In this document: positions 20,524 to 62,306 of the stretch, piece by piece
Numbering within the stretch: the stretch's first letter is position 1
How the letters are laid out: every line of letters starts with the position of its first letter
Virus record (IMG/VR): IMGVR_UViG_3300017917_001123
Coordinates: 267,571-331,570 of that record
Length of the DNA stretch: 64,000 nucleotides
Source: a virus
Reading direction: 5' to 3' (one strand)
Made by a program: the position numbers and the translations under genes
The notes under the pieces: generated by a model
Database searches by the model: none
Told to the model about the DNA's origin: nothing
The model's input: only the letters and a program-made list of their open reading frames with translations

Positions 20524-20739
20524 GTGGCAAAAGACGATTGTATCGTAATGTTCGGTACTGTTGAAGAAGTACTACCCAACGCAATGTTTCGCGTTAAGCT
20601 CGAAAGCGGACAATATGTTCTAGGACATATCTCTGGTAAGATGCGTCAAAACAGAATTCAAATTCTACTAGGTGATAATGTCAAAATTGAAATGAGTCCA
20701 TATGATTTGTCTAAGGGACGAATAGTTTATAGACAATGA
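20524..20739 (+). CDS. infA: translation initiation factor IF-1
   Basis: 71 aa, GTG start. '[60 protein letters not shown]' is near-identical in pattern to bacterial IF-1 ('...HISGKMRKNYIRILTGDKV...[12 protein letters not shown]'). Confidence 0.85.
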
Positions 20740-21536
20740 TCCCTATCATTACAGGTTCTGACGGTTATATAGGAACCAACCTATCCCAGCTATTCAATAA
20801 GCACAATAGATCTTTTGTTGGGCTTGATCGCAAATCAGGTCCAGATCTCCTGAGTGCCGAGGGCAAGGATCTTTTTGAGGAATGTGCTAGTACAGCGGAT
20901 GTAGTTATACATCTTGCGGCTCGTCCTCGAATTCCTCCTAGCTGGGTAGATACTACTGCTTATATTCGTGATAACATTGAGCTAACAGAATATGTTGCTC
21001 GAATATGCGCCGAACAAGGCTGTCATTTAATATTTGCTAGTTCTAGCTCTGTTTACGGGAACGGAACAGGTCCTCTGAATCCCTATGCTTGGACTAAAAA
21101 AGCCGGAGAGGACATTATTCGTATCTACGGCGAAAAAGGACTAAGTTACACAATTTGTCGCTTGTTTACTACCTTTGGCAATAACGGACCCTTGGTTTTA
21201 GATAAGTGGCTCAAGCAAAGCCTAGCCGGAGAACCTATAACACTCTACGGCGATGGCACACAAAGTAGAGATTTTATTCATGTAGAGGATGTAGCAGATG
21301 CTCTTTACTCTGCTTATCTTGCCAAATTAGACAAAGAAACGCTAGATGTAGGCACAGGCAAAGCCCACAAACTACAGGATATTGCGGACTGGTACGGGAA
21401 CGAAATTATTCGTGGTCCTGCTCAAGAGGGCTATGCTCACAGCACTCAAGCGAAAGCCCAGCGAACAATGGAATTGCTCAACTGGGCTCCTAAACGTCCA
21501 GTAATTAGTTGGATCCGTTCTGGCCTAGATATGTAG
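20736..21536 (+). CDS. NAD-dependent epimerase/dehydratase (SDR family)
   Basis: N-terminal 'ITGSDGYIG' GxxGxxG and 'YAWTKK' YxxxK catalytic motif. Ends in TAG. Confidence 0.65.
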
Positions 21537-35776: not shown

Positions 35777-36046
35777 TTACTTCTTAGCGCCAGTGTTAAC
35801 AAAGGCATACATCTTTTCAGCTGTCTCTAGAACTTTATCAAGTCCTGGAAACTCTGGCATTTCTACCTTGCTAACGATTTGACCAGTCTTCTCATCACGT
35901 TGAGCAGTCATTTCCCAACCGGCAAATTTAACTTGAAAGTCTTGCTGAACAAGTTCTTTAGCCATTGCTAAGATGTCTGTACGGATTTCGTAACCGTTTT
36001 TATTGAACTTTACTTCTGGTAGTTTTGGTGTATTGAATTCTGACAT
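35777..36046 (-). CDS. hypothetical protein
   Basis: 89-aa ORF preceded by the conserved ACATACACACAGGAGAA ribosome-binding motif. Confidence 0.45.
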   Translation of the reverse strand: MSEFNTPKLPEVKFNKNGYEIRTDILAMAKELVQQDFQVKFAGWEMTAQRDEKTGQIVSKVEMPEFPGLDKVLETAEKMYAFVNTGAKK

Positions 36047-36076
36047 AATTTTTCTCCTGTGTGTATGTCTTACTGC

Positions 36077-36280
36077 TTATTTGGCCACTGCGTTTTTAAA
36101 AAACTTAATGACCGCATCATTAAGTGCGGAATTGCCCTTAACAATACTCTTGGCAAACTCACGTTGTGCTTCTACGTAAGCTAGCATCCCGTTTTTCAGC
36201 GGCTCGTTGGTTACAAATGTATTAACAAACTGTGCCTTGGCATTCTGAATGCCGTCAATGAAAAAATCTGGTGTAAACAT
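36077..36280 (-). CDS. hypothetical protein
   Basis: 67-aa ORF preceded by the same conserved motif. Confidence 0.4.
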   Translation of the reverse strand: MFTPDFFIDGIQNAKAQFVNTFVTNEPLKNGMLAYVEAQREFAKSIVKGNSALNDAVIKFFKNAVAK

Positions 36281-36344
36281 TTTTATTCTCCTGTGTGTAT
36301 GTTTAACAATGCGTTGAACATTGTACTATTATATATCTTTTTAT

Positions 36345-36917
36345 TTAAAATGTCAAAGGAAACCTGAGCATTTGAGCAAATTTTCTCTGAGCCTTACCTA
36401 AGTGATCAATCTTAGCAAGGCTATCGCTAACCGCTTCTCTCCATACACTAACCGGAGTTGGGGCAGGAATTGCTATCTCAGCACTAGCATCGCCGTGCTC
36501 TGACTTAACTAAAATACCGTGCTTACGTGCCAGGCTTTTAATCTTATCGTTGCTACCCAAGCAGACCATACAACCTGTTTTGATACTGTGGTTTTGACAA
36601 TACTCAATGGTACGAGCCATTAGGGCATCGCCCATACCTTGTCCTTGGCATTCTTTTAAAACACTAAAAGCTAGCTCAGCAGGATCATCTTCTAAACTGA
36701 TGTGACCGATACCTACAATTTCAAGGTCATCATTTTCGATCGCAAAGATAATGTGCTTGTCCGAGTTATCGCGCCACTTGTTACAAAGATCGATAATCTG
36801 TTCATTTCGAATGTGGTATCCAAAACGCATATATCGACTTTCTTCATCCAGACTAAGCAGATGTAGTTTGTATCTGTGATACTCGGGCTTTTCTAACTTG
36901 TAGATGGTATGTACCAT
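36345..36917 (-). CDS. GNAT family N-acetyltransferase
   Basis: Motif A 'CQGQGMGDALMARTIEY' (Q/RxxGxG/A). Confidence 0.7.
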   Translation of the reverse strand: MVHTIYKLEKPEYHRYKLHLLSLDEESRYMRFGYHIRNEQIIDLCNKWRDNSDKHIIFAIENDDLEIVGIGHISLEDDPAELAFSVLKECQGQGMGDALMARTIEYCQNHSIKTGCMVCLGSNDKIKSLARKHGILVKSEHGDASAEIAIPAPTPVSVWREAVSDSLAKIDHLGKAQRKFAQMLRFPLTF

Positions 36918-37043
36918 TTACTTTCCTTCCATTACCGCTCTAGCTTCGTCGTATTTGCGGGCTCTAGCTAATTCTGCCGCATACTTAGCACGGCCAATTG
37001 AGCAAAGAAAATCCCAAATAAATTTAATTGTTGTTTTGAACAT
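36918..37043 (-). CDS. small ORF (41 aa), translationally coupled to the GNAT gene
   Basis: MFKTTIKFIWDFLCSIGRAKYAAELARARKYDEARAVMEGK. Its stop overlaps the GNAT start (TAAATG). Preceded by a third copy of the conserved CACACA-GGAGA motif. Missing from the ORF track because it is under 60 aa. Confidence 0.3.
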   Translation of the reverse strand: MFKTTIKFIWDFLCSIGRAKYAAELARARKYDEARAVMEGK

Positions 37044-37131
37044 TGTGTGTTCTCCTTGTGTGTATGTAGCTACTCATGGTTTCTACTGAGTATTTAGCAC
37101 ATTATATGTTGCGGCCGCATAAAACACAAGT

Positions 37132-45747: not shown

Positions 45748-48102
45748 ATGATCACAGTTGTTAAACGCAGTGGAGAAAAAGTACCACTAGACATTAGCAA
45801 AATACAGAGACAGGTAGCATACGGGTGTAAGGGGATAGATGGAGTTAGTCCATCGATGATTGAGATCAAAGCCCAGATCGAATTACACGACGGAATGTCA
45901 ACAGAGACCATCGACGAGCTGTTGTTAAAGGCCATGGTTAACCTGATTGACGAAACAGAAAATCCAGAAATCAATCACACAAATTATCAATATGTAGCAG
46001 GCCGTCAAAAGGTTAGTATGCTACGTAAAGAAGTCTATGGCAAATATACGCCACCACCTCTCTACGAGATTGTTAAAAGAAACGTAGAACTAGGAATGTA
46101 CACACCAGAACTATTAGACTGGTACACAAAAGAAGAATGGGATATTATTGATCTTTTCATTGATCATGCTAAAGATGAAAATTACACCTATGCGGCTATT
46201 GCTCAACTAGCAGAAAAATATCTAGTACAAAATAGGGCAACAGGCAAGATATACGAAACTCCACAGGTGCGTTATGCTGTAGCTGCCGCTACTGCTTTCC
46301 ATAACGAACCAAAAGATAAAAGATTAAAATATGTTAAAGAATATTACGAGTGTGCATCTGATGGTCACTTTACTTTGGCTACTCCTGTACTTGCTGGCCT
46401 CGGTACTCCTACCAAGCAGTTCAGTAGTTGTGTTCTTATTAGTTCTGACGATACACTTGACTCTATTTTTGCCGCAGGCGAAATGATGGCCAAGTATGCT
46501 AGCAAACGTGCTGGCATTGGCTTAGAGATTGGTCGTATTCGCCCACTAGGTGCTCCTATTCGTAACGGAGAGATCAAACATACCGGTCTAATTCCATTTA
46601 TGAAAAAATGGTTTGCTGACTTGCGTAGCTGTTCACAGGGCGGTATTCGTAACGCATCATGTACAGTTACATTTCCTATCTGGCACGCTCAGTTCGAAGA
46701 CCTAATCGTTCTAAAGAATAATCAGGGAACAGAAGAAACTCGTGTTCGTCAGATGGACTACTCAGTTGTAGTTAATGCCATGTTCTGGCGCCGTTATAAG
46801 AATGGCGAAAACATTACATTGTTTGACCCAAGTGAAGTACCGGACTTATACGAAGCATTTTACCGTAGCACAAGCGAGTTTGAGAAGTTATACTTACAGT
46901 ATGAACAAGACAAGACAAAGAAGAAAAAAGTCCTTACGGCCAACCAAGTGTTTAAGGACGGCATACTTAAAGAGCGTACGGATACTGGAAGAATCTACCT
47001 TGTCTTCATCGACAACGTCATCAACCAAGGCCCGTTCGATACAACTGTTGACCCGATATATCAATCAAATCTCTGCCAAGAAATTCTCTTGCCCACAAGA
47101 CCTTTTCAACGCATTGAAGACCCGACGGGGAGAATTGCTCTTTGCACTCTTGGCTCAATCAACTGGGGAAGTTTCAGAAACCCACAAGAGATGAGAAAGG
47201 CTTGCCGTGTACTTGTACGTAGTCTAAGTAACTTATTAAATTACCAAGACTTCTTAAGTATTCAGAGTAAGTTAGCCAACGAAGACTTTGAACCACTAGG
47301 TGTTGGAATTACCAATTTAGCATACTGGCATGCCAAGAGACATTTCAAATATGGTGAAGCAGAATCACTAGCAGAAGTTAAGCGTTGGATGGAACATCAG
47401 GCATATTTCTTAACAGAGATGTCAGTGGAACTTGCCCAAGAACGCGGCGCATGTAAGCGTAGCGAATTTACCTATTATGGCAAAGGTGTGTTTCCTTGGG
47501 AACGCCGTGCTAAGGGTGTAAATGAACTAACGGATTTTACCCCAAGCACAAACCTAGATTGGGAAGGACTACGTGCTAGATTAAAACAGTATGGTATCCG
47601 TAACGCTACACTAATGGCAGTTGCTCCTGTTGAGTCCAGTTCAGTTGTACTTAACAGTACTAACGGCATTGAAATGCCGATGGAAATGATTTCAGTAAAA
47701 GAATCTAAAGCAGGATCATTTGTACAGGTTGTACCAGAATACCGTCGTCTAAAGAATCGCTATCAGTTAATGTGGGATCAAACAAACTGCGAAGATTACT
47801 TAAAGACTGCCGCGGTATTAGCCGTATATATCGACCAAAGTTTATCTACCAATACATTCTATAATCCAGCACATTTCCCAGGCGGAAAGGTTCCGGGTAC
47901 TTTGGTTGCCAAGAACTTAATGTTGGCTTACAAATGGGGCCTAAAGACTATATACTATAGTTTAATTAATAAGGTAGGAGCAAAGGTTAGTGTTACGGGC
48001 ACTAATACACAAACTAACGGCGCCCACGATGTTCCTGCGTTAGCCGGTGAACCTATTACAGTATATGAAGATGACGCAGACTGCGAGGCATGTAAACTAT
48101 GA
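45748..48102 (+). CDS. nrdA: ribonucleoside-diphosphate reductase alpha subunit (class Ia)
   Basis: N-terminal ATP-cone ('VVKRSGEKVPLDISKIQ'), 784 aa. C-terminal 'CEAC' thiol pair. Overlaps nrdB by 4 nt. Confidence 0.9.
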   Translation: MITVVKRSGEKVPLDISKIQRQVAYGCKGIDGVSPSMIEIKAQIELHDGMSTETIDELLLKAMVNLIDETENPEINHTNYQYVAGRQKVSMLRKEVYGKYTPPPLYEIVKRNVELGMYTPELLDWYTKEEWDIIDLFIDHAKDENYTYAAIAQLAEKYLVQNRATGKIYETPQVRYAVAAATAFHNEPKDKRLKYVKEYYECASDGHFTLATPVLAGLGTPTKQFSSCVLISSDDTLDSIFAAGEMMAKYASKRAGIGLEIGRIRPLGAPIRNGEIKHTGLIPFMKKWFADLRSCSQGGIRNASCTVTFPIWHAQFEDLIVLKNNQGTEETRVRQMDYSVVVNAMFWRRYKNGENITLFDPSEVPDLYEAFYRSTSEFEKLYLQYEQDKTKKKKVLTANQVFKDGILKERTDTGRIYLVFIDNVINQGPFDTTVDPIYQSNLCQEILLPTRPFQRIEDPTGRIALCTLGSINWGSFRNPQEMRKACRVLVRSLSNLLNYQDFLSIQSKLANEDFEPLGVGITNLAYWHAKRHFKYGEAESLAEVKRWMEHQAYFLTEMSVELAQERGACKRSEFTYYGKGVFPWERRAKGVNELTDFTPSTNLDWEGLRARLKQYGIRNATLMAVAPVESSSVVLNSTNGIEMPMEMISVKESKAGSFVQVVPEYRRLKNRYQLMWDQTNCEDYLKTAAVLAVYIDQSLSTNTFYNPAHFPGGKVPGTLVAKNLMLAYKWGLKTIYYSLINKVGAKVSVTGTNTQTNGAHDVPALAGEPITVYEDDADCEACKL

Positions 48103-49199
48103 GTAAACAACAATACGATTTTTCTAAACCAACAAACTATCTAAAGCGCCATATGTTTCTGGATCCAGCAGGTCCTGTTACAGTCCAGCGTTTTGAAGAA
48201 GTTAAGTATCCTAAAGTCCAAAAGTACGAAGAATTAGCACGTGGCTTCTTTTGGGTTCCAGAAGAAATTAGTCTTACCAAAGATAAAATTGATCACAAGG
48301 AAGCCAGTGAAGCGGTAAAACATATCTTTACCAGCAACCTATTGCGTCAAACAGCCCTTGACTCAATTCAAGGCCGAGCACCGTTCCAGGTATTTGGTCC
48401 TGTGACAAGTATTCCAGAACTTGAAGCTCTAGCATTAACTTGGAGTTTCTTTGAAACATCGATTCACAGTAAGAGCTACAGTCATATCATTCGTAACGTC
48501 TACGGTGTACCAAAAGAAGAATTTAACAAGATTCATGACACACAAGAAATTGTGGGAATGGCAAGTCACGTTGGCAAGTATTACGAAGATTTACACATTC
48601 TAAACATTCGTAAAGAATTAGGCGAGACAATTCCTCTCAAGGAACATAAGAAGGCAATTTGGTTAGCCCTACATGCTTCTTATGCCCTAGAAGCTCTACG
48701 CTTCATGGTATCCTTTGCTACAAGCCTAGCAATGGTAGAAAATAAAATCTATATCGGTAATGGTAATATCATTAGTCTTATTCTTCAAGACGAATTATTA
48801 CACACCGAGTGGACAGCCTGGCTAATTAACAATGTAACTAAAGACGATCCTGACTTTGTACCAATTGCGGAAGAATGTAAGGATGAAGTCTACGCAATGT
48901 ATTTGGATGTTATCCGTGAAGAAAAAGAATGGGCAGATTACCTATTCAAGAAAGGCGTTGTTATTGGCCTTAACGCTAACATCTTAAAAGACTTTGTAGA
49001 CTACACAGCTTACACTCGTCTAAAAGAAGTCGGTATCAAGTATCTTGAGGATCATCCGAAGACTACACCTATTCCGTGGTTTAATAAGCACGTGAATATT
49101 AATAAAAAACAAACGGCATTACAGGAAAATGAAAGTACTAACTATGTTATCGGTGTTATGAGTGACGCAGTTAGTTACGAAGAACTTCCTGATCTATAA
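48099..49199 (+). CDS. nrdB: ribonucleoside-diphosphate reductase beta subunit
   Basis: Di-iron ligand motifs 'FFETSIHSKSY' and 'QDELLHTEW' (ExxH x2), and 'LHASYALEALRF'. Confidence 0.85.
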   Translation: MSKQQYDFSKPTNYLKRHMFLDPAGPVTVQRFEEVKYPKVQKYEELARGFFWVPEEISLTKDKIDHKEASEAVKHIFTSNLLRQTALDSIQGRAPFQVFGPVTSIPELEALALTWSFFETSIHSKSYSHIIRNVYGVPKEEFNKIHDTQEIVGMASHVGKYYEDLHILNIRKELGETIPLKEHKKAIWLALHASYALEALRFMVSFATSLAMVENKIYIGNGNIISLILQDELLHTEWTAWLINNVTKDDPDFVPIAEECKDEVYAMYLDVIREEKEWADYLFKKGVVIGLNANILKDFVDYTAYTRLKEVGIKYLEDHPKTTPIPWFNKHVNINKKQTALQENESTNYVIGVMSDAVSYEELPDL

Positions 49200-49217
49200 T
49201 AAAAAGAAGGTAGCGAA

Positions 49218-49439
49218 ATGAAAGCGATTGTATGGTCAAAGTATAACTGCCCCTATTGCGAGCAGGCAAAGTCCCTTTTAAAAATGAAGGGCATCGAATT
49301 CGAGGAGCGAAAAATCGGAGACGGCTACACTAAGGAGGACTTGTTGGAAGCAGTTCCAACAGCTCGAACCGTACCCCAAATCTTTTTAGATGAGGAGTTA
49401 GTAGGTGGCTTCGACGATCTTAAACGCAAACTCGGCTAA
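49218..49439 (+). CDS. glutaredoxin (NrdH/Grx-like redoxin)
   Basis: 73 aa with a 'CPYC' active site and a 'TVPQIF' cis-Pro loop. Confidence 0.8.
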   Translation: MKAIVWSKYNCPYCEQAKSLLKMKGIEFEERKIGDGYTKEDLLEAVPTARTVPQIFLDEELVGGFDDLKRKLG

Positions 49440-49818
49440 TGTAACTGCCGGCGGTCAAGGAGGTTCTAATTCAGGTGGAAATGTTTACATCTGGAATAAT
49501 ACAGGAACTTACTCTACTGGCAGTATAACAGTTCCGTCGTCATATTATGTGTCTGGCACAAATGGAGCGTCTTGGTCCACTATTACAACCAGCAACGCAC
49601 AGTCTCAACTGACTGTAACAGGCGATGCCGAAATTGAAGGATCACTTAAAGTGGGCGGCAAAGATATTGCTAAAAGTTTAGAAGCAATAGAAAAACGTCT
49701 TGCTATACTTGTTCCTGATCCAGAGAAGTTAGAACACTTCGAAGCTCTAAAAAAAGCCTATAACCATTACAAAATGTTAGAAGCACTTTGTGAATTACCA
49801 ACAGAAAAGAAAGAATAA
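49405..49818 (+). CDS. hypothetical protein (fibre-like Gly/Ser/Thr N-half, coiled-coil C-half)
   Basis: 137 aa, 35-nt overlap with the glutaredoxin gene. Confidence 0.35.
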   Translation: MASTILNANSANVTAGGQGGSNSGGNVYIWNNTGTYSTGSITVPSSYYVSGTNGASWSTITTSNAQSQLTVTGDAEIEGSLKVGGKDIAKSLEAIEKRLAILVPDPEKLEHFEALKKAYNHYKMLEALCELPTEKKE

Positions 49819-49820
49819 TT

Positions 49821-50522
49821 ATGGATGTTAAACTTGTTTCCTACAGTCAACCAACTGGAGAATTTAAAAACATGGGTCTCGAAGATGCGCAGGATCTCAT
49901 CGCGTATTGTGCCCGTGTGTCAAACCCAGCTAACCAATTCAACAACGAGACAGCAGAAAAGCTCATCAAGTATCTCGTTAAACACGCACACTGGAGCCCA
50001 CTCGAAATGGTGTCAGCCTGCTGTGAAATCACAACCACACGTGACATTGCCCGACAGATTCTACGTCACAGAAGTTTCAGCTTCCAAGAGTTCTCCCAGC
50101 GATATGCTGATCCTACAGCAGAGCTTGACGAAGCGTTTGTTATACGTGAGGCAAGACTCCAGGACACAAAGAATCGACAGAACAGCATAGAAATTCCTAT
50201 GAACAGTCCTGAGAATCGTATGTTAGCCTACGAATGGGAACGTGCTCAGAAACGTGTGCTACACGCAGTTAAAGATTCATATCGTTGGGCTATCGAAAAC
50301 GGTATTGCTAAAGAACAGGCTCGTGCCGTCCTTCCAGAGGGACTAACAATTAGTCGTATGTATATGAACGGAACACTTCGTAGTTGGATTCACTTTATTC
50401 AATTGCGTAGTGGCAACGGCACACAAAAAGAGCACATGGAAGTTGCTCGTGCTTGCGCCAAAGTAATCGCAGAAATCTTCCCAATGGCACAGGACTATGT
50501 CGAACCTAGCCAAGGGGCGTAA
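49821..50522 (+). CDS. thyX: flavin-dependent thymidylate synthase
   Basis: ThyX signature 'RHRSFSFQEFSQRY' (RHRx7S). Confidence 0.85.
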   Translation: MDVKLVSYSQPTGEFKNMGLEDAQDLIAYCARVSNPANQFNNETAEKLIKYLVKHAHWSPLEMVSACCEITTTRDIARQILRHRSFSFQEFSQRYADPTAELDEAFVIREARLQDTKNRQNSIEIPMNSPENRMLAYEWERAQKRVLHAVKDSYRWAIENGIAKEQARAVLPEGLTISRMYMNGTLRSWIHFIQLRSGNGTQKEHMEVARACAKVIAEIFPMAQDYVEPSQGA

Positions 50523-52392: not shown

Positions 52393-52469
52393 ATATAAAC
52401 TTTGAAAGGACTACATCATGGCATATAGAGCTAAAAATGGTAGCGTAAAGGCAGCGGCACGTAGAGCAT

Positions 52470-52557
52470 TACGTCGTCGACAGAAATAATTTTATTGCTG
52501 TATGAAGCAAACCCAAAAGGGTTCTGGACGCGGGTTCGACTCCCGCCAGGTCCACCA
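52470..52557 (+). ncRNA. ssrA: tmRNA acceptor piece (3' tRNA-like half, ends CCA) of a permuted two-piece ssrA; 5' boundary approximate
   Basis: T-arm 'GCGGG-TTCGACT-CCCGC' (52530-52546), 3' acceptor strand 'CAGGTCC' + A + CCA (52547-52557). No matching 5' acceptor strand upstream, so this is not a tRNA. Confidence 0.65.
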
Positions 52558-52645
52558 AAAGAGGATTGTATGAACGAAGAAGTAACTAAATGGATGCTGG
52601 GCGTGGGCCTAGTTCTTTTAATGTTCTTTTTAGTCCTTTTTTGAT

Positions 52646-52839
52646 GGGCCTGTACTGGATTTCGACAGGGTCAAGAGTAGGCGAGTGGACAGCACGGTAG
52701 GCGATGACCGTAAATCAAGCAAAACAAAATAGACGCAAACGATGAAGTTTACGCATTGGCGGCCTAATAACGGCTTCCTAGGGTAGGAAATACCTCGTAA
52801 CAGAAAATACCAAAAGGCTCTTCGGAGCCTTTTTCTTTG
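52646..52839 (+). ncRNA. ssrA: tmRNA coding piece (5' acceptor strand, tag reading frame ANDEVYALAA, terminator)
   Basis: 5' 'GGGCCTGTACTGGATTTCGACAGGG' matches the tmRNA 5' consensus (E. coli GGGGCUGAUUCUGGAUUCGACGGG). GGGCCUG pairs with CAGGUCC of the upstream piece. 'UAG-AC-GCA AAC GAU GAA GUU UAC GCA UUG GCG GCC UAA UAA' at 52730-52770 parallels the E. coli resume region and tag. Confidence 0.75.
52813..52839 (+). terminator. rho-independent terminator of the tmRNA transcript
   Basis: AGGCTC-ttcg-GAGCCT followed by TTTTTCTTT. Confidence 0.65.
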
Positions 52840-52959: not shown

Positions 52960-53424
52960 ATGAGAAAATTCGCAATCGCATCAATCTTGGCTTTGGCCGC
53001 AGTTTCAGCTTCGGCTGTAGAACTTGGCGTTACCGCAACACGTGGTGACACCACAGGTGATACTCGCAACTACGCAGGTGTTACCCTTGGTCAAAGTTTT
53101 GGCAAGCTAAATGCAACTGCTGGCTTTGAGCGTTCAACTGTTGGCGCACAGGGCAATCAGAACCGCTGGAGCTTGGTTGGTGGATACGACATTGCCAAGG
53201 TTGGTCCAGTTACTTTTACTCCTAAACTTGGTTATGCTTACTTAGACAATCAGACTCCGGGTGTTGCCAGCGGCAATGCTTATACAGTTGGTCTAGGCGC
53301 ATCATACGCTCTCACTAAGCAAGTTAGCCTTACCGCAGACTATGCTTATCAAAAGGCCTTTGAAACAAAGGTTGAGCAGTTTGATGGCAACCGAGTTACA
53401 TTGGGTGCTAAGTACCGCTTCTAA
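52960..53424 (+). CDS. small outer-membrane beta-barrel protein (OmpX/Ail/OmpA-like OMP)
   Basis: Signal peptide 'MRKFAIASILALAAVSASAVE', alternating amphipathic beta-strands, and a C-terminal aromatic 'YRF' terminal signature. Confidence 0.6.
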   Translation: MRKFAIASILALAAVSASAVELGVTATRGDTTGDTRNYAGVTLGQSFGKLNATAGFERSTVGAQGNQNRWSLVGGYDIAKVGPVTFTPKLGYAYLDNQTPGVASGNAYTVGLGASYALTKQVSLTADYAYQKAFETKVEQFDGNRVTLGAKYRF

Positions 53425-55181: not shown

Positions 55182-55538
55182 ATGGCTGAGATTTTTAAAT
55201 GCTTAAACTGCGGGAGAGAAAACCCTGTTAAAGGCGCAAATTATTCAAACAAGTATTGTAATAATCATTGCCAGCAACAGCATAGAAAGAAACTCCTAAA
55301 CGAAAAGCGTATTCAAGAATGGAAGTCAGGATGCGGGCTTTATGTATGGAAGGAAGTTCCGGATTACATTAAAGAACACCTTATCCAAGAGCGTGGGCAT
55401 CAATGTGAAGTATGCGGTATTACAGAGTGGCAGGGCAATCCGGCTCCGCTAACTGTAACGCAGAAAGACCGAGATGCTTATAACAACAAAGAAGATAACT
55501 TAGAAGTCATCTGTTATAATTGCTTATCGCAAAAATAA
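55182..55538 (+). CDS. Cys-rich zinc-ribbon protein with degenerate HNH-like C-terminal module
   Basis: 'CLNCG...CNNHC' and 'CEVCG...NLEVICYNC' CxxC pairs. The usual catalytic His is replaced ('TVTQKDRD' in place of 'xVDHIxP'). Confidence 0.4.
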   Translation: MAEIFKCLNCGRENPVKGANYSNKYCNNHCQQQHRKKLLNEKRIQEWKSGCGLYVWKEVPDYIKEHLIQERGHQCEVCGITEWQGNPAPLTVTQKDRDAYNNKEDNLEVICYNCLSQK

Positions 55539-55565
55539 TTTCATTTCACACAAGGAGAAACACAA

Positions 55566-56105
55566 ATGAAAACCGTTGGACAAAAATTAGATCCGTTTAT
55601 CGTAACTGGTGTTAAGCCAGGTCAACCTGAAGATGCTTTCTTCGACATCACCGAGGAATCATTCCCAGGTAAGTGGAAAGTAATCGTTTACTATCCAAAG
55701 GACTTTACATTCGTTTGCCCAACTGAAATTGTTGCCTACGATAAGTTGGCACAGGATTTCGCAGACCGCGACGCTGTATTGCTAACTGGTTCAACAGACA
55801 ACGAGTTCTGTAAGGTAGCTTGGCAGAAGGCACACCCAGATCTACAAAAGATCACTCACACTCAGTTCGCTGATACACAGCGTGGTGAGAACAGCCTAAT
55901 CGAGCAACTAGGTGTATTCTATGCTCCAGCAGGTGCGGCTCTTCGTGCTACATTCATTGTTGATCCTAACAACGAAATCCAGCACGTTACAGTCAACAAC
56001 TTGAACGTTGGTCGTAGCCCAGAGGAAACACTTCGTGTTCTTGATGCGCTACAAACTGGCGAGCTTTGCGCTTGTAACCGTGCTGTAGGCGGCGAAACAC
56101 TTTAA
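55566..56105 (+). CDS. peroxiredoxin (AhpC/Prx family)
   Basis: Peroxidatic Cys motif 'DFTFVCPTEI'. C-terminal 'GELCACN' is a candidate resolving Cys. Confidence 0.85.
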   Translation: MKTVGQKLDPFIVTGVKPGQPEDAFFDITEESFPGKWKVIVYYPKDFTFVCPTEIVAYDKLAQDFADRDAVLLTGSTDNEFCKVAWQKAHPDLQKITHTQFADTQRGENSLIEQLGVFYAPAGAALRATFIVDPNNEIQHVTVNNLNVGRSPEETLRVLDALQTGELCACNRAVGGETL

Positions 56106-56320
56106 GGGAATACAATGACCGGTAAAGAATTTGAACGTAAGATAAGACAATATCATTACCGTCTCGAGTTGCTACGCACAGTAGCACCGGTCATTATCAT
56201 TACCTTACAATGTATCATCTTATATAAGATTTTTTGGGGGTAGTATTATGAGTTTTCAAGAACAATTTGCTTACTTAAAAAGATGGCATTGCCCATCTTG
56301 TAACACACAAGGAAAATAAA

Positions 56321-56827
56321 ATGGCTTTTATTGAATCAATTAAACAAGCCTTGCCAGAGTACGCAAAGGATACCAAACTTAACTTGGATGCTGTCCTTTT
56401 GCGTAGCACATTGGATGCCGATGTGGCTATGGGCTGTGCGGTTGCCGCATTGGCCGCAACTGGCAATGGAAAGGTACTCGCAGTAATGTTGGCAGATGCT
56501 CCGGTACATGCCGAATCTGCGATGTGTGCCGCAAGCATTATGGCACAGAACAATGTATGGTATCCATATGTTGAAATGGCAGATGATGAGCAACTCAAAG
56601 GCTTGCCAGCACAGTTACGCATGAACGCAATCGCAAGTCATGGCGGAACTACAAAGGCAAACTTTGAAGCATTTAGTTTGGCGGCTAGTATTGTTGGCAA
56701 ATGTCATTTCTGTGTTAAGGCACACTATGACACATTGAAGCAAGAAGGCTACACAGTAGAACAGCTTCGTGACATTGGCCGTATTGCTAGTGTTATGAAC
56801 GCAGTAGCCAAAGTTTTAAACAGTTAA
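56321..56827 (+). CDS. ahpD: alkylhydroperoxidase AhpD-like (carboxymuconolactone decarboxylase family)
   Basis: 'GKCHFCVKAH' CxxC(H) active-site motif of AhpD. Confidence 0.7.
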   Translation: MAFIESIKQALPEYAKDTKLNLDAVLLRSTLDADVAMGCAVAALAATGNGKVLAVMLADAPVHAESAMCAASIMAQNNVWYPYVEMADDEQLKGLPAQLRMNAIASHGGTTKANFEAFSLAASIVGKCHFCVKAHYDTLKQEGYTVEQLRDIGRIASVMNAVAKVLNS

Positions 56828-56833
56828 TCCAAA

Positions 56834-56866
56834 AGCCCTGTTTCCAGGGCTTTCCCTCCTTTCTTC
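56834..56866 (+). terminator. rho-independent terminator
   Basis: AGCCCTG-tttc-CAGGGCT followed by a pyrimidine/T-rich tract. Confidence 0.5.
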
Positions 56867-56898
56867 CAAAATTTTGGTAAATTCTTTGCCAAAAGTGG

Positions 56899-56927
56899 TT
56901 GACCTTTTACCACTTTGACCTTATAAT
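56899..56927 (+). promoter_or_regulatory. sigma70-type early promoter TTGACC-17-TATAAT (rIIA)
   Basis: -35 at 56899-56904, -10 at 56922-56927, 43 nt upstream of the rIIA ATG. Confidence 0.55.
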
Positions 56928-56970
56928 ATATACATACAGTTAGATAACAGACACACAGAAAGGGTCTAAA

Positions 56971-59148
56971 ATGCAACTTTTGAACGCTGTCCAAAACGAA
57001 GCTATTTTGAGCAACGTTGGCGAAATTGGTGAGTTTCGTATCCGCAACTCTGCCAAAGCCTTTAACATCTTGTCCAGCGGTTTGTACGCAAACAAGATTA
57101 AGGCAATCGTTCGCGAATTGAGCTGTAACGCAGTTGACTCGCATACTGCCGCTGGTAAGTCAGACGTTCCGTTTGATGTTCATCTTCCTTCACAATTCGA
57201 ACCTTGGTTTGCTATTCGCGACTACGGTACTGGACTAAGCCATGAACAAGTTACTAACATCTATACGACTTATTTTGAGTCCACTAAGACTGCTTCAAAT
57301 GATTTCATTGGTGCTTTGGGTCTTGGCTCTAAGTCTCCTTTCAGCTACACTGACAATTTCACCGTAACCGCTATCCAAAACGGTCGCAAGGGTATCTACT
57401 CTGCTTTCATTAACGAAGCAGGTGTGCCTAGCATCGCATTGATGATGGAAGAAGCTACAGACGAAGCTAACGGTGTTGAAGTTAAGTTCTCTGTGAACGA
57501 ACGCTGGGACTTTGACAAGTTCCGCCAAGAAGCTCGTTCAGTCTACAAGTGGTTCAAGCAACAGCCCAATGTTATCGGTGTCAGCGACTTCAAGATCGAA
57601 GAAGTTGACTACGAAGACATGAACATTGTTCCTGGAGTTCACAGCCGTCAGCGCGGTTACGGCCATTCGGTTGCCGTTATGGGTAATATTGCTTACCCTA
57701 TCGAAATTCCTAACGCTGACCAAAGCCTCGGTGCTCTGCGTAAACTGTTGAGCTGTGGTCTTGTTATGGAGTTCAAAATTGGTGAACTGGACTTCCAAGC
57801 AAGCCGCGAAGGTTTGAGCTACATTCCTCAGACCATCGCTAGCATTAAGGCTAAGTTGGAAGAACTGAACGGTGCTTTGGCCGGAAAGTTGGCTGAAGAA
57901 GCAGATGCTATTACTAACCAGTGGGAAAAGGCTTTGTTCCTGTCCACTCGTGCTGATAAGGATCTGTGGTCTGCGGCTACTCGTAAGTACATCGCTGACA
58001 CTAAGTTTGAGCTGATCGAAGATCGTTCTGGCTATCTGCGTACTAAGGCATTTGGTCTTAAGACTGAAGATCTCCAAAAGGACTACAACATTATCCTTCG
58101 TGGCTTTAGCAAAGGTCGCGGATCTGTTACTTGTTCTAACATGACTGCTGGTCGTGAATACGACTATCACAAAAAGGACGCTAACGGTCATTCGCTGTCT
58201 TGGACTGAGTGGCGCATGAGCATCAGCAACGGTGTTCAGTTTGTTGTAAACGATACCAAAGTTGGTGCTACCGAACGTGCTAAGAACCACTGGCGCAAGT
58301 GTAAGCAGGACGACCTGCCGCACCAAAGCCATGTGTATGTTGTCGAGCCGTTTGACCGCACTAAGCCGATGAAGACCAAGGAGTTTTTTGAGTTGATCAA
58401 GAATCCTCCGGAGTGCCAAATCCGTTTGGCAAGCTCGCTGATTGAGAAGGAACGTGCCCAAGGTACTAGCCTGAAGAACGTTACTATCCTTAAGCTGGCT
58501 CCTCGTGGCTACGGCGGTTACTATCGTGAACGTGAAATGGTTTGGAAGGACGCAGGTAAGGCTGATCAGTTTGATCAGACCAAAACTTACTACTACATTC
58601 CGTTGAGCGGTTTCGAAATGAACAGTTCTTGTGGTTACACTTCTGGTAAAGAATTGTGGACTGAACTCAAAGAAAGTAAGATGGGTGTTTGCCCAGAAAC
58701 TATCTACGGTGTTCGCAAGTCGGACATTGAGTTTATCCGTACACAAGCTAACTGGGTTAATTTGGAAAAGCATATCAAGGAAACTTTGGAAAAAGTAACC
58801 GAACAAGATATGGTGAAATTTGCTGTTAGCCTACTTGACAATTCCAATGTTGCCAAGTACAATAGTAGCATTGTAAACGGTATTTCAAACCCGAATAGCC
58901 CTTACGTGGTCTTTGTGAATAAACTCAAGGACGTCCAAGCAGAGAGCTTTAACGAACATTACGTCAAGCGTCTGTTTAGTCGTTTCAAGATTCAAGCGCA
59001 CGACCCGTCTGCTATCGCTGAGAAGTTCCGTAAGGAATGTAACGATGTTATCAGTCGTTATCCGTTGATCGACTACGTGCCTAGTAGTAAAGCTACCCAA
59101 GCCCTGGTTGATTACATTAATATGGTTGACACACAGAAAGGTGTTTAA
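56971..59148 (+). CDS. rIIA: rIIA protein (membrane-associated, GHKL-ATPase-like N-terminus)
   Basis: '[30 protein letters not shown]' and '[27 protein letters not shown]' closely match T4 rIIA ('[30 protein letters not shown]', '[27 protein letters not shown]'). Confidence 0.85.
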   Translation: [725 protein letters not shown]

Positions 59149-62230: not shown

Positions 62231-62306
62231 GCGTCTGTAGCTAAGTGGCATAGCAGGAGCCTCTAAAACTCTGAATCGCGGGTTCGATTCCCGCCAGACG
62301 CACCAA
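62231..62306 (+). tRNA. tRNA with anticodon loop CU-CUA-AA (putative amber suppressor tRNA-Sup(CUA))
   Basis: Full cloverleaf by hand: acceptor gcgtctg/cagacgc, D-arm gcta-agtggca-tagc, anticodon stem ggagc/actct (one C-A mismatch at 31-39), loop ctctaaa, 5-nt variable loop, T-arm gcggg-ttcgatt-cccgc, discriminator A, encoded CCA. Confidence 0.7.

What the first reader, a model, noticed from the sequence alone, without database searches (positions are those of the whole stretch)
55566..56866. AhpC-type peroxiredoxin plus AhpD-like alkylhydroperoxidase pair carried by the phage
55566-56105 has the peroxidatic 'FTFVCPTEI' motif. 56321-56827 has the AhpD 'CHFCV...H' active site. In actinobacteria, AhpD is the dedicated reductant of AhpC, so the pair forms a self-contained peroxide-detoxifying system.

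Both genes carry the CACACAAGGAGAA-type ribosome-binding context of the early genes. The block ends in a terminator. Between them lie two tiny ORFs (42 aa with a TM segment, and 23 aa).

This is likely an auxiliary gene set protecting infection from oxidative stress.
Basis: partly seen in the sequence, partly recalled or inferred. Interest (0 to 1): 0.55.

Follow-up and report, generated by a model that had tools for sequence, protein, structure and literature searches.

The report
Phage-borne AhpC–AhpD peroxide-reducing gene pair
A large freshwater phage, probably infecting a betaproteobacterium, carries a peroxide-destroying enzyme (AhpC) and its recycling partner (AhpD), and hundreds of uncultivated phages keep the same pair under strong selection, so it is a real but unsurprising stress-protection gene set.

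Summary
ORF 55566-56105 is an M. tuberculosis-type AhpC peroxiredoxin. ORF 56321-56827 is a full-length AhpD. Every catalytic residue is present in both. Phage genes flank them (HNH, NrdAB, rIIA/rIIB).

The pair is not a one-off:
- At least 593 IMG/VR viral contigs encode a close AhpD relative.
- In 77 of the 80 loci examined, ahpC lies upstream of ahpD.
- Median dN/dS against the window copy is about 0.05, with synonymous sites near saturation.
- The viral sequences form their own clade. Among the cellular genomes retrieved, the closest are Burkholderiales ahpC-ahpD operons (AhpD 47-59%, AhpC 61-68% identity), not actinobacteria.
- A betaproteobacterial-type tmRNA in the window points to the same kind of host.

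- The system is not self-contained. By the M. tuberculosis precedent, AhpD needs a lipoylated E2 protein, Lpd and NADH, presumably from the host.
- The CACACAAGGAGA leader belongs to phage ahpC genes generally. It is not shown to mark early genes.
- The "terminator" is a stable hairpin with a weak U-tail.

Additions:
- Both tiny ORFs are conserved coding genes. The 23-aa one has an H-C-P-x-C motif.
- Close relatives carry AhpC plus AhpF at the same locus.

Peroxidase activity was not assayed. This is a new member of a known kind, of moderate interest.

The parts
55182..55538 (+). HNH endonuclease gene, ending 27 nt upstream of the ahpC start. It is probably a mobile insertion that separates ahpC from the promoter seen in relatives.
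   Evidence: PHROG HNH endonuclease families score E 5e-10. Homologues lie directly upstream of ahpC in L004 (87%) and L087 (47%) only. Nucleotide homology to the close relative L165 begins exactly at 55539.
55547..55559 (+). CA-rich leader plus Shine-Dalgarno sequence (CACACAAGGAGAA) of ahpC.
   Evidence: Exact match. An ACAC..AGGA leader lies within 25 nt of the ahpC start in 54 of 76 viral loci, against 2 of 1520 random windows.
55566..56105 (+). ahpC: M. tuberculosis-type (three-Cys) typical 2-Cys peroxiredoxin, 179 aa. Residues Pro44, Thr48, Cys51 (peroxidatic), Arg127, Cys168 (resolving) and Cys170.
   Evidence: Pfam AhpC-TSA scores 73.3 bits against a cut-off of 26. PDB 2bmx matches at E 2e-43. 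The catalytic residues are conserved in 77 of 77 viral and 69 of 69 cellular homologues. Median dN/dS is 0.048.
56115..56243 (+). 42-aa micro-ORF with a charged N-terminal half and a hydrophobic C-terminal segment (APVIIITLQCIILYKIF). Conserved small gene of unknown function.
   Evidence: Found in 8 further IMG/VR contigs at 79-98% aa identity. In 5 it lies between ahpC and ahpD. In L171 it lies just upstream of ahpD and the contig ends before ahpC. In the other 2 it lies between AhpC and AhpF. Diversity at codon positions 1/2/3 is 0.16/0.05/0.50. The membrane segment is judged by eye only.
56248..56319 (+). 23-aa micro-ORF MSFQEQFAYLKRWHCPSCNTQGK with a conserved [WY]-H-C-P-x-C motif. Its 3' end encodes the ahpD ribosome-binding site.
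   Evidence: Found in 13 IMG/VR contigs, always between ahpC and ahpD, ending at or within about 190 nt of the ahpD match (within about 30 nt in 12 of the 13). Diversity at codon positions 1/2/3 is 0.12/0.18/0.44, with synonymous Cys, Pro, Arg and Ser codon changes. Absent from the bacterial ahpC-ahpD loci examined.
56304..56316 (+). Leader and Shine-Dalgarno sequence of ahpD (CACACAAGGAAAA), lying inside the 23-aa ORF.
   Evidence: One mismatch to the ahpC leader. It lies 4 nt before the ahpD ATG.
56321..56827 (+). ahpD: AhpD-family alkylhydroperoxidase and AhpC reductase, 168 aa. Residues Glu116, Cys128, Cys131 and His135.
   Evidence: PDB 1gu9/1knc matches at E 2e-25 over residues 4-166. 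Pfam CMD scores 41.8 against a cut-off of 23, and TIGR00778 AhpD core scores 29.5 against 27.8. Active-site residues are conserved in 80 of 80 viral and 75 of 75 cellular homologues. Median dN/dS is 0.057. At least 593 IMG/VR contigs encode a relative.
56832..56853 (+). Stable 9-bp hairpin 5 nt after the ahpD stop. Possibly a weak intrinsic terminator or an RNA-stabilising element.
   Evidence: MFE is -15.6 kcal/mol, z = -3.72, with 0 of 200 shuffles as stable. Not called by the terminator scan because the tail has fewer than 5 T in 8.
56899..56927 (+). Sigma-70-like promoter (TTGACC-17-TATAAT) of the next unit, rIIA. It marks the downstream boundary of the cassette.
   Evidence: 11 of 12 consensus matches. 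The region 56872-56972 is 88% identical in L076, directly upstream of its rIIA gene.

Best explanation
This is a phage-borne auxiliary operon for a two-protein thiol peroxidase system of the M. tuberculosis/Burkholderiales AhpC-AhpD type.

**Shown here by sequence**
- AhpC has the full peroxiredoxin active site (Pro44, Thr48, Cys51, Arg127) and the C-terminal Cys168/Cys170 pair.
- AhpD has the Cys128-x-x-Cys131 centre with His135 and Glu116.
- The two genes form a conserved unit, often translationally coupled, in many phages and are under strong purifying selection.

**Inferred from the biochemistry of the M. tuberculosis homologues**
- Cys51 of AhpC reduces H2O2, organic hydroperoxides or peroxynitrite and becomes a sulfenic acid.
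- That sulfenic acid is resolved into a disulfide with Cys168.
- The AhpD CxxC reduces this disulfide.
- Oxidised AhpD is re-reduced by dihydrolipoyl groups on a host 2-oxoacid-dehydrogenase E2 subunit. Host Lpd recharges those groups with NADH.
- The phage therefore supplies the peroxidase and its adaptor, and the host supplies the electrons.

**Inferred role**
- Extra peroxide-scavenging capacity keeps the infected cell and the replicating phage functional in oxic, sunlit fresh water. The phage encodes an iron-dependent class Ia ribonucleotide reductase, a flavin-dependent ThyX and a glutaredoxin nearby.
- The host is probably a betaproteobacterium.

**Inferred history**
- An ahpC-ahpD operon was captured once from a Burkholderiales-like donor and has since evolved as a phage-specific lineage.
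- The interval between the two genes has become a slot for small inserted genes. In this window the slot holds a 42-aa membrane microprotein and a 23-aa CPxC microprotein.
For: - **Homology.** Full-length matches to M. tuberculosis AhpC (E 2e-43) and AhpD (E 2e-25). Pfam and NCBIfam family hits agree.
- **Catalytic residues.** All are conserved in the window copy, in 77-80 viral homologues and in 69-75 cellular homologues.
- **Phage context.** HNH, NrdAB, glutaredoxin, ThyX, rIIA, rIIB and tail proteins are present. GC is 0.37-0.45 across the window, with no composition break at the pair.
- **Pair conservation.** At least 593 IMG/VR contigs carry a close AhpD relative. ahpC lies upstream in 77 of 80 loci, 32 with a TAATG overlap.
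- **Selection.** Against the 80 most similar viral loci, median dN/dS is 0.048 (AhpC) and 0.057 (AhpD), with dS above 1.
- **Origin.** In a neighbour-joining tree the IMG/VR sequences form a clade free of cellular sequences in 100 of 100 bootstraps. Its neighbours are Burkholderiales ahpC-ahpD operons at 47-59% (AhpD) and 61-68% (AhpC) identity.
- **Host.** A betaproteobacterial-type tmRNA scores 152.6 bits against a gathering score of 84.
- **Analogous replacement.** L166 and L167 share the tmRNA, the porin-like gene and the 42-aa ORF with the window. They carry AhpC (TIGR03137, 311.7 against 272) and AhpF (TIGR03140, 738.5 against 502.9) instead.
- **Lipoyl dependence in M. tuberculosis.** PMC12440151.
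- **Ecological context.** Antioxidant genes are common in freshwater phages (PMC6802176). [quoted passage not shown]
Against: - No activity, expression or host data exist. Every mechanistic step is by homology.
- Both proteins score below the NCBIfam whole-family cut-offs: AhpC TIGR03137 at 110.7 against 272, and ahpD TIGR00777 at 121.6 against 191.95.
- His132 of M. tuberculosis AhpD is Phe here (CHFC rather than CSHC). All the Burkholderiales homologues share this change.
- The electron donor is unknown. No lipoyl-domain protein or Lpd was seen in the window ORFs scanned, and the window covers only part of the genome.
- The search for cellular relatives used peptide patterns taken from the query. 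The "closest are Burkholderiales" result may therefore be sampling-biased.
- The structure model was too poor to use (pLDDT 50.7).
Confidence: 0.8

Rival explanations
1. AhpC is a real peroxidase, but its reductant in the infected cell is a thioredoxin or glutaredoxin: host Trx, or the phage glutaredoxin at 49218-49439. AhpD would then do something else, for example act as a stand-alone weak hydroperoxidase or a general disulfide reductase.
For: - The phage encodes a glutaredoxin next to NrdB.
- From my own knowledge, M. tuberculosis AhpC can also be reduced by thioredoxin C.
- In related loci ahpD can lie up to 2.4 kb from ahpC, with unrelated genes between them.
Against: - ahpC lies upstream of ahpD in 77 of 80 loci. 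In 32 of these the stop and start overlap.
- The pair descends from cellular ahpC-ahpD operons.
- In relatives, AhpD is replaced by AhpF, the other dedicated AhpC reductase, not by a Trx or Grx.
Confidence: 0.1
2. The biochemistry is as proposed, but the selected benefit is not everyday peroxide scavenging. Instead the pair counters an oxidative attack. That attack could be a host response or abortive-infection mechanism that uses reactive oxygen, or the oxidative burst inside a grazing protist's phagosome.
For: - Kavagutti et al. proposed phagosome survival for antioxidant genes in freshwater phages (PMC6802176).
- The pair sits next to rIIA and rIIB. PHROGs calls these lysis inhibitors, and one GenBank record annotates rIIA as a protector from prophage-induced early lysis.
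Against: Nothing in the sequence separates this from general protection. Related phages carry the pair in several different gene neighbourhoods.
Confidence: 0.07
3. The second protein is a generic carboxymuconolactone-decarboxylase-family protein with no link to AhpC, and the adjacency in this window is incidental.
For: - The protein scores below the TIGR00777 cut-off.
- Two ORFs separate it from ahpC in this window.
Against: - It aligns over its full length to M. tuberculosis AhpD.
- Glu, Cys-x-x-Cys and His are all conserved.
- The linkage to ahpC is conserved in phages and in bacteria.
- It matches the AhpD core-domain model above its cut-off.
Confidence: 0.02
4. The pair is host chromosomal DNA that entered the contig by misassembly or transduction, and is not a phage gene set.
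For: The only GenBank "phage" record with the pair, Ralstonia phage YO375_1, looks like host DNA. It is 68% GC and its neighbouring ORFs look like IspF and IspD by eye.
Against: - In the window, phage genes flank the pair on both sides and base composition is uniform.
- Hundreds of viral contigs carry it.
- The viral clade is at most 59% (AhpD) and 68% (AhpC) identical to any cellular copy retrieved.
- The apparent MAG copies at 64-89% lie on low-GC contigs, three of which (L081, L082, L084) carry phage-family genes.
Confidence: 0.01

Closest known systems
Mycobacterium tuberculosis AhpC/AhpD (PDB 2bmx; 1gu9, 1knc): peroxiredoxin plus thioredoxin-like adaptor, recharged through lipoylated E2 and Lpd
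   Same: - These are the best solved-structure matches for both proteins.
- AhpC shares the PxxxTxxC motif, the conserved Arg, and the C-terminal Cys-x-Cys.
- AhpD shares the Glu/Cys-x-x-Cys/His centre.
- The genes are adjacent and in the same order.
   Different: - AhpC is 179 aa, against 195 residues in the 2bmx chain, with a shorter N-terminus.
- The AhpD active site reads CHFC rather than CSHC, so His132 is replaced by Phe.
- The genes are carried by a phage, and two microprotein genes sit between them.
- Lipoyl dependence is not tested.
Burkholderiales ahpC-ahpD operons (Undibacterium, Paraburkholderia, Burkholderia, Cupriavidus, Caldimonas and others)
   Same: - They are the closest cellular relatives retrieved: AhpD 47-59% and AhpC 61-68% identity.
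- Gene order is the same, and the CHFC motif is the same.
   Different: - The cellular genes have 12-420 nt spacers, with no TAATG coupling and no 23-aa micro-ORF.
- The phage copies form a separate clade and sit in DNA of about 40% GC.
Enterobacterial-type AhpC/AhpF alkyl hydroperoxide reductase
   Same: - It has the same logic of a peroxiredoxin plus a dedicated reductase.
- Relatives of this phage (L166, L167) carry it at the equivalent locus, with the same 42-aa ORF between the two genes.
   Different: - AhpF is an NADH-dependent flavoprotein that makes the system truly self-contained.
- The window's AhpC is only about 28-30% identical to that AhpC type. It scores 110.7 against the 272 cut-off of TIGR03137.
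Antioxidant auxiliary genes of aquatic phages: cyanophage peroxiredoxin, thioredoxin and glutaredoxin; freshwater phage ferritin, SOD and glutathione peroxidase
   Same: They share the proposed role, which is relief of oxidative stress during infection (PMC12801897; PMC6802176).
   Different: - Those reports describe single enzymes.
- I found no description of a phage AhpC-AhpD pair in the searchable literature.
- No verified phage genome in the GenBank collection carries one.

Membership tests
AhpC/Prx1-type typical 2-Cys peroxiredoxin (M. tuberculosis AhpC subtype) | Thioredoxin-fold AhpC-TSA domain scoring above the Pfam gathering score | tested here: met
   PF00578 scores 73.3 bits against a cut-off of 26, E 2.2e-20.
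AhpC/Prx1-type typical 2-Cys peroxiredoxin (M. tuberculosis AhpC subtype) | Peroxidatic site PxxxTxxC plus the conserved Arg | tested here: met
   Pro44, Thr48, Cys51 and Arg127 align with M. tuberculosis Pro54, Thr58, Cys61 and Arg133. They are invariant in 77 viral and 69 cellular homologues.
AhpC/Prx1-type typical 2-Cys peroxiredoxin (M. tuberculosis AhpC subtype) | C-terminal resolving Cys and third Cys (M. tuberculosis Cys174 and Cys176) | tested here: met
   ELCACN, with Cys168 and Cys170, aligns to M. tuberculosis ELCA(C/S)N.
AhpC/Prx1-type typical 2-Cys peroxiredoxin (M. tuberculosis AhpC subtype) | Score above the NCBIfam AhpC equivalog cut-off (TIGR03137, the AhpF-coupled type) | tested here: not met
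   The score is 110.7 bits against a cut-off of 272. The AhpF-linked AhpC of L166 passes at 311.7. The window protein is therefore an AhpC-family peroxiredoxin but not the AhpF-coupled equivalog.
AhpC/Prx1-type typical 2-Cys peroxiredoxin (M. tuberculosis AhpC subtype) | Thiol-dependent peroxidase activity | not testable with these tools
   This needs an enzyme assay.
AhpD alkylhydroperoxidase (CMD superfamily) | CMD domain and AhpD core domain scoring above their cut-offs | tested here: met
   PF02627 scores 41.8 against 23. TIGR00778 ahpD_dom scores 29.5 against 27.8.
AhpD alkylhydroperoxidase (CMD superfamily) | Active site Cys-x-x-Cys with the His and Glu proton relay (M. tuberculosis Cys130, Cys133, His137, Glu118) | tested here: met
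   Cys128, Cys131, His135 and Glu116 are present and invariant in 80 viral and 75 cellular homologues. M. tuberculosis His132 is Phe here, as in all the Burkholderiales copies.
AhpD alkylhydroperoxidase (CMD superfamily) | Full-length similarity to characterised AhpD, and a score above the TIGR00777 subfamily cut-off | tested here: inconclusive
   The protein aligns to M. tuberculosis AhpD over residues 4-166 at E 2e-25. TIGR00777 scores 121.6 against a cut-off of 191.95.
AhpD alkylhydroperoxidase (CMD superfamily) | Gene linked to ahpC, on the same strand and downstream | tested here: met
   The gap is 215 nt in the window. ahpC lies upstream in 77 of 80 viral loci and in nearly all the cellular loci.
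AhpD alkylhydroperoxidase (CMD superfamily) | Reduces oxidised AhpC and is recharged by dihydrolipoamide or lipoyl-E2 | not testable with these tools
   This rests only on the M. tuberculosis precedent (PMC12440151).
AhpD alkylhydroperoxidase (CMD superfamily) | All-helical AhpD fold | tested here: inconclusive
   The AlphaFold2 model built from a shallow 15-sequence alignment is all-helical, but its mean pLDDT is 50.7. It was not used for a fold search.
Phage auxiliary (host-derived) gene | Lies inside a phage genome, has cellular homologues, and is maintained by selection in phages | tested here: met
   Phage genes flank it. Burkholderiales homologues exist. Median dN/dS is about 0.05 across the 80 most similar viral loci.

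The most novel reading that the evidence does not exclude
The two conserved microproteins are previously unrecognised accessory parts of phage peroxiredoxin systems. One is a 42-aa tail-anchored membrane peptide, found with both AhpC-AhpD and AhpC-AhpF. The other is a 23-aa [WY]-H-C-P-x-C peptide, found only in the ahpC-ahpD interval, usually within about 30 nt of the ahpD start.

The CPxC peptide might act as a miniature redox relay or a metal- or thiol-sensing element. Alternatively it might be a leader ORF that couples ahpD translation to redox state. The membrane peptide might localise the system.

More broadly, the locus would be a modular "peroxidase slot" in a lineage of freshwater phages, in which reductase modules (AhpD or AhpF) and small inserted genes are exchanged between conserved flanks.
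Probability: 0.2. Interest if true: 0.6.

Novelty: new member of a known kind. Interest (0 to 1): 0.4.

Why it matters
Antioxidant auxiliary genes are already known in aquatic phages. The general idea is therefore not new.

What this adds:
- **A complete adaptor-type peroxiredoxin system in phages.** AhpC and AhpD together form a distinct and apparently old phage lineage, shown by dS above 1 and a monophyletic viral clade.
- **High abundance in metagenomes.** At least 593 IMG/VR contigs carry it, and some protein clusters hold thousands of member sequences.
- **Absence from isolated phages.** No verified GenBank phage genome in the collection carries the pair.

If the mechanism is as inferred, these phages plug a peroxidase into the host's central-metabolism lipoyl/NADH pool during infection. 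Peroxide tolerance of infected freshwater betaproteobacteria would then be a measurable, phage-controlled trait.

The swap between AhpD and AhpF at one locus is a natural experiment on which reductant route suits which host.

The two conserved microproteins are concrete, testable unknowns.

The work also flags database problems. Phage contigs are binned into bacterial MAGs, and host DNA has been deposited as a "phage".

Tried and rejected
- **Megablast of 40000-64000 against GenBank phages.** No match.
- **Distant blastn and tblastn against GenBank phages.** For AhpD, and for the pair, these found only Ralstonia phage YO375_1. That record turned out to look like host DNA: 68% GC, flagged UNVERIFIED_ORG, with IspF/IspD-like neighbours. 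I dropped it as a phage precedent. The other AhpC hits in that collection are 27-34% identical single peroxiredoxins, many on fragmentary records.
- **Exact look-up of the window's AhpD in the assembly index.** Not on record.
- **Actinobacterial origin.** Rejected. The closest cellular pairs retrieved are Burkholderiales and the tmRNA is of the betaproteobacterial type.
- **Cyanophage identity.** Considered because a baseplate or protease-like protein matches T4-like cyanophages at 28-35%. The tmRNA and the ahpCD origin point to a betaproteobacterial host, so I did not adopt it.
- **MAG contigs at 64-89% identity as "cellular" sources.** Rejected. They are 36-45% GC, and three of them (L081, L082, L084) carry phage-family genes such as virion and tail proteins.
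- **Terminator scan.** It did not call the hairpin. Folding shows a stable stem but a poor U-tail.
- **CACACAAGGAGAA as a window-wide signature.** Not significant.
- **Structure prediction of AhpD.** Mean pLDDT 50.7 from a shallow alignment, so unusable. No fold search was run.
- **First tree attempt.** Timed out. It was redone with fewer sequences.
- **Literature.** Seven searches and one supplement search found no description of a phage AhpC-AhpD pair.
- **First search for the 42-aa ORF.** It was repeated with an alignment.
- **Antisense ORF 56275-56622.** It only mirrors ahpD conservation and is not a gene.
Full report
**1. The observation**

- ORF 55566-56105 (+, 179 aa) reads ...YYPKDFTFVCPTEIVAYDK... 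and ends ...LQTGELCACNRAVGGETL.
- ORF 56321-56827 (+, 168 aa) contains ...KANFEAFSLAASIVGKCHFCVKAHYDTL....
- Between them lie a 42-aa ORF (56115-56243) and a 23-aa ORF (56248-56319).
- CACACAAGGAGAA is exact at 55547-55559. It has one mismatch at 56304-56316.
- A 9-bp hairpin at 56832-56853 folds at -15.6 kcal/mol (z = -3.7).
- A near-consensus promoter (TTGACC-17-TATAAT, 56899-56927) follows, in front of rIIA.

**2. Identity of the two proteins**

- *Family matches.* The first protein matches Pfam AhpC-TSA (E 2e-20). The second matches CMD (E 1e-10) and the AhpD core-domain model above its cut-off.
- *Solved structures.* The best matches are M. tuberculosis AhpC (2bmx, E 2e-43) and M. tuberculosis AhpD (1gu9/1knc, E 2e-25, residues 4-166 of 168).
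- *AhpC residues.* Mapping the M. tuberculosis catalytic residues gives Pro44, Thr48, Cys51 and Arg127, plus the C-terminal Cys168/Cys170.
- *AhpD residues.* The same mapping gives Glu116, Cys128, Cys131 and His135.
- *Conservation.* These residues are invariant in 77-80 viral and 69-75 cellular homologues.
- *One active-site difference.* M. tuberculosis His132 is Phe here (CHFC). All the Burkholderiales copies share this.
- *Scores below curated cut-offs.* AhpC scores 110.7 against 272 for TIGR03137. AhpD scores 121.6 against 191.95 for TIGR00777.
  - TIGR03137 fits the AhpF-coupled AhpC type. The AhpF-linked AhpC of L166 passes it at 311.7.
  - I therefore file the proteins as an AhpC-family peroxiredoxin of the M. 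tuberculosis/Burkholderiales type and an AhpD-family protein, not as those exact equivalogs.
- *Structure model.* An AlphaFold2 model of AhpD from a shallow alignment was too poor to use (pLDDT 50.7).

**3. Context: a phage, probably of a betaproteobacterium**

- *Phage genes in the window.* It encodes rIIA (56971-59148) and rIIB, NrdA and NrdB, a glutaredoxin, ThyX, tail and virion proteins, and an HNH endonuclease ending 27 nt upstream of the ahpC start.
- *Composition.* GC is 0.37-0.45 throughout, with no break at the pair.
- *No close isolate.* No GenBank phage is similar at the nucleotide level.
- *Host clue.* Rfam finds a betaproteobacterial-type two-piece tmRNA at 52447-52836, scoring 152.6 bits against a gathering score of 84. 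Its tag is ANDEVYALAA.

**4. The pair in other sequences**

The best 80 are 89-98% identical. The large protein database holds 6287 related clusters, some with thousands of member sequences.
- *Linkage.* In 77 of the 80 loci an AhpC homologue (80-97% identity) lies upstream on the same strand. In all three exceptions the contig ends upstream of ahpD without an ahpC match, after about 0.8 to 3.8 kb.
- *Spacing.* In 32 loci the ahpC stop overlaps the ahpD start as TAATG. In 45 loci, 190-2400 nt are inserted.
- *Contents of the inserts.* The genes often begin at the same TAATG. Pfam identifies DUF2061, PsiE, a class II aldolase, a GDSL-like hydrolase (a weak match), TerC, a Bax-inhibitor-type protein and a cytochrome c.
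- *Flanks.* Flanking genes are mostly not shared with the window. NrdB and its neighbours recur in 16-18 loci, and rIIA in 2. Another group of 138-kb contigs has the pair among Cpn10, DnaJ and ferritin genes.
- *Selection.* Against these 80 most similar loci, median protein identity is 90-92% but nucleotide identity only 79-81%. Median dS is 1.3-1.5, and median dN/dS is 0.048 (AhpC) and 0.057 (AhpD). The high protein conservation therefore reflects long-term constraint, not recent spread.

**5. Origin**

- *Cellular relatives.* In one genome per species of bacteria and archaea, real chromosomal copies reach only 47-59% (AhpD) and 61-68% (AhpC) identity. Nearly all are Burkholderiales, with ahpC and ahpD adjacent and 12-420 nt spacers.
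- *Apparent exceptions.* Matches at 64-89% sit on short contigs of 36-45% GC, binned into Haliscomenobacter, Hydrogenophaga, Beijerinckiaceae and Acidimicrobiaceae MAGs. L082 carries virion and tail genes. L081 and L084 carry other phage-family genes. They are most likely mis-binned phage contigs.
- *Tree.* In a neighbour-joining tree of the concatenated proteins, rooted on M. tuberculosis, the IMG/VR sequences form a clade free of cellular sequences in 100 of 100 bootstraps. Adding the low-GC MAG contigs gives 79 of 100.
- *Caveat.* The genome scan used peptide patterns taken from the query, so the sampling of cellular relatives is biased.
- *The one GenBank "phage" record.* Ralstonia phage YO375_1 is flagged UNVERIFIED_ORG. 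The stretch is 68% GC and has IspF/IspD-like neighbours, so it looks like host DNA.

**6. Signals**

- *Leader.* The CA-rich leader belongs to phage ahpC genes generally. An ACAC..AGGA element lies within 25 nt of the start in 54 of 76 loci, against 2 of 1520 random windows.
- *Promoter in relatives.* A sigma-70-like promoter (at least 10 of 12 matches) lies within 200 nt upstream in 44 of 76 loci, against 11% of random windows.
- *Promoter in this window.* The HNH gene occupies the place where the promoter would be. Nucleotide homology to the close relative L165 starts exactly at 55539, one base after the HNH stop. Here ahpC is probably transcribed with, or from within, the HNH gene.
- *Window-wide use of the context.* Only five genes have the ACACA(A)GGAG-ATG context: ahpC, ahpD, and three small minus-strand ORFs near 36.0-37.1 kb. 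An "early gene" signature is therefore not established.

**7. The tiny ORFs are real**

- *42-aa ORF.* It recurs in 8 further viral contigs at 79-98% identity.
- *23-aa ORF.* It recurs in 13 contigs, always between ahpC and ahpD. It ends within about 30 nt of the ahpD match in 12 of them and about 190 nt before it in L185. These AhpD proteins are only 51-82% identical to the window's.
- *Coding signature.* Diversity by codon position is 0.16/0.05/0.50 for the 42-aa ORF and 0.12/0.18/0.44 for the 23-aa ORF. Synonymous changes include TGT/TGC, all four Pro codons, AGA/CGT and AGT/TCA.
- *Conserved motif.* The 23-aa peptide keeps E-Q-F-x-Y-L-K-x-[WY]-H-C-P-x-C. In most copies, including the window's, its last codons (N-T-Q-G) are the ahpD leader itself.
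- *Distribution.* It is absent from the bacterial loci and from the 80 top AhpD loci.
- *Function.* Unknown for both. Possible roles are a small redox or metal-binding peptide, or a leader ORF coupling ahpD translation.

**8. An informative swap**

L166 and L167 share three things with the window: the tmRNA (75-98% nt over short segments), the porin-like gene (78-82% nt) and the 42-aa ORF (98% aa). In place of the window's pair they carry an enterobacterial-type AhpC (TIGR03137, 311.7 against 272) and AhpF (TIGR03140, 738.5 against 502.9). The 42-aa ORF sits between those two genes. Two non-homologous reductases for a peroxiredoxin at one locus argue that the selected function is peroxide reduction with a dedicated electron route.

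**9. Mechanism and its limits**

- *Inferred chemistry, from the M. tuberculosis system.* AhpC Cys51 attacks the peroxide. The resulting sulfenic acid is resolved by Cys168. The AhpD CxxC reduces AhpC. Lipoyl groups on E2 subunits reduce AhpD (PMC9227533; PMC12440151).
- *Not self-contained.* Unlike AhpC-AhpF, the pair must draw on the host's lipoyl-E2, Lpd and NADH, or on some other donor. I saw no such protein among the window ORFs scanned, and the window is only part of the genome.
- *Ecological context.* More than 10% of freshwater phage genomes in one survey carry antioxidant genes (PMC6802176). [quoted passage not shown]
- *What is shown and what is inferred.* Only sequence identity, linkage, selection and distribution are shown here. 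Activity, donor, timing and benefit are all inferred.

**10. Verdict**

- The finding is real, and its main interpretation holds.
- It is a new member of a known kind: a host-derived antioxidant auxiliary gene set.
- Three features go beyond the ordinary. The phage lineage is large and old. Reductase modules are interchangeable at one locus. Two conserved microproteins accompany the system.
- I found no published description of a phage AhpC-AhpD pair in the library searched.
- Interest is moderate.

Noticed in passing
window 52447-52836 (+): The phage encodes a two-piece (permuted) tmRNA of the betaproteobacterial type. Rfam RF01850 scores 152.6 bits against a gathering score of 84, and the tag peptide is ANDEVYALAA. 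Parts of it are conserved in the relatives L166 and L167. It is a useful clue to the host.
   Followed up: partly
window 62231-62305 (+): A tRNA with a CUA anticodon, an amber suppressor (ARAGORN labels it Pyl; Rfam tRNA scores 65 bits). TAG ends only 3 of 81 likely genes in the window, against 60 TAA and 18 TGA.
   Followed up: partly
window 55182-55538 (+): An HNH endonuclease gene ends 27 nt upstream of the ahpC start. Homology to the relative L165 begins exactly at 55539, so the gene looks like a mobile insertion next to a highly conserved target. It displaces the promoter that most relatives have there. Similar HNH genes precede ahpC in L004 and L087.
   Followed up: partly
L001-L080, the interval between ahpC and ahpD: In 45 of 77 related phage loci the ahpC-ahpD operon is split by 190-2400 nt. 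The inserts hold one to four extra genes, often starting at the TAATG overlap. They include DUF2061, PsiE, a class II aldolase, a GDSL-like hydrolase, TerC, a Bax-inhibitor-type protein, a cytochrome c and two unknown proteins of about 210 aa. The interval acts as an insertion hot spot between two conserved flanks.
   Followed up: partly
L166 2426-4706; L167: Close relatives of the window phage carry enterobacterial-type AhpC plus AhpF, both above the NCBIfam equivalog cut-offs, at the same locus after the tmRNA and the porin-like gene. The same 42-aa ORF lies between the two genes.
   Followed up: yes
window 52960-53424 (+): A 154-aa ORF matches outer-membrane beta-barrel and porin families (Pfam Porin_4 at E 3e-9, OMP_b-brl at 1.6e-7). 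It is conserved at 43-81% in several related viral contigs. A phage-encoded porin-like protein is unusual.
   Followed up: no
window 45748-50522 (+): A nucleotide-metabolism block: NrdA, NrdB, a 73-aa glutaredoxin (49218-49439) and ThyX (49821-50522). NrdB and its neighbours recur near ahpCD in 16-18 of 80 related loci.
   Followed up: partly
window 56872-56972; L076 7098-7195: The promoter and 5' leader region of rIIA is 88% identical in nucleotides between the window and L076. The rIIA proteins are only 55% identical. The non-coding stretch is thus more conserved than the gene it precedes.
   Followed up: no
L081-L084 (NZ_JBBAKG010000090.1, CAZNWS010000062.1, JBIPLL010000607.1, CAYVOK010000089.1): These contigs are binned into Haliscomenobacter, Hydrogenophaga, Beijerinckiaceae and Acidimicrobiaceae MAGs. 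They are 36-45% GC. L082 carries virion and tail genes, and L081 and L084 carry other phage-family genes. They are most likely mis-binned phage contigs.
   Followed up: partly
L186 (ON170345.1 1-6606): GenBank "Ralstonia phage YO375_1" is flagged UNVERIFIED_ORG. The stretch with ahpC-ahpD is 68% GC and has neighbouring ORFs that look like IspF, IspD and a sensor kinase by eye. It looks like host chromosomal DNA rather than phage.
   Followed up: partly
window 1-22000: The left part of the window is rich in biosynthetic or modification genes that are unusual for a phage. They include a Nol-like carbamoyltransferase (5053-6528, -), radical SAM proteins (2583-3551; 8460-9821, -), a halogenase-like flavoprotein (16109-17359), a nucleotide-sugar epimerase (20736-21536) and an ATP-dependent DNA ligase (18370-19659).
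   Followed up: no
window 36040-37065 (-): Three small minus-strand ORFs (41, 67 and 89 aa) have the same ACACA(A)GGAG-ATG leader as ahpC and ahpD. They are the only other genes in the window with that context.
   Followed up: no
L161-L164 (ENA GROS21 metagenome scaffolds, about 138 kb): A different phage genome type carries the overlapping ahpC-ahpD pair among Cpn10 (GroES), DnaJ and, about 10 kb downstream, ferritin-like genes. That would add chaperone and iron-sequestration functions to the same genome.
   Followed up: no
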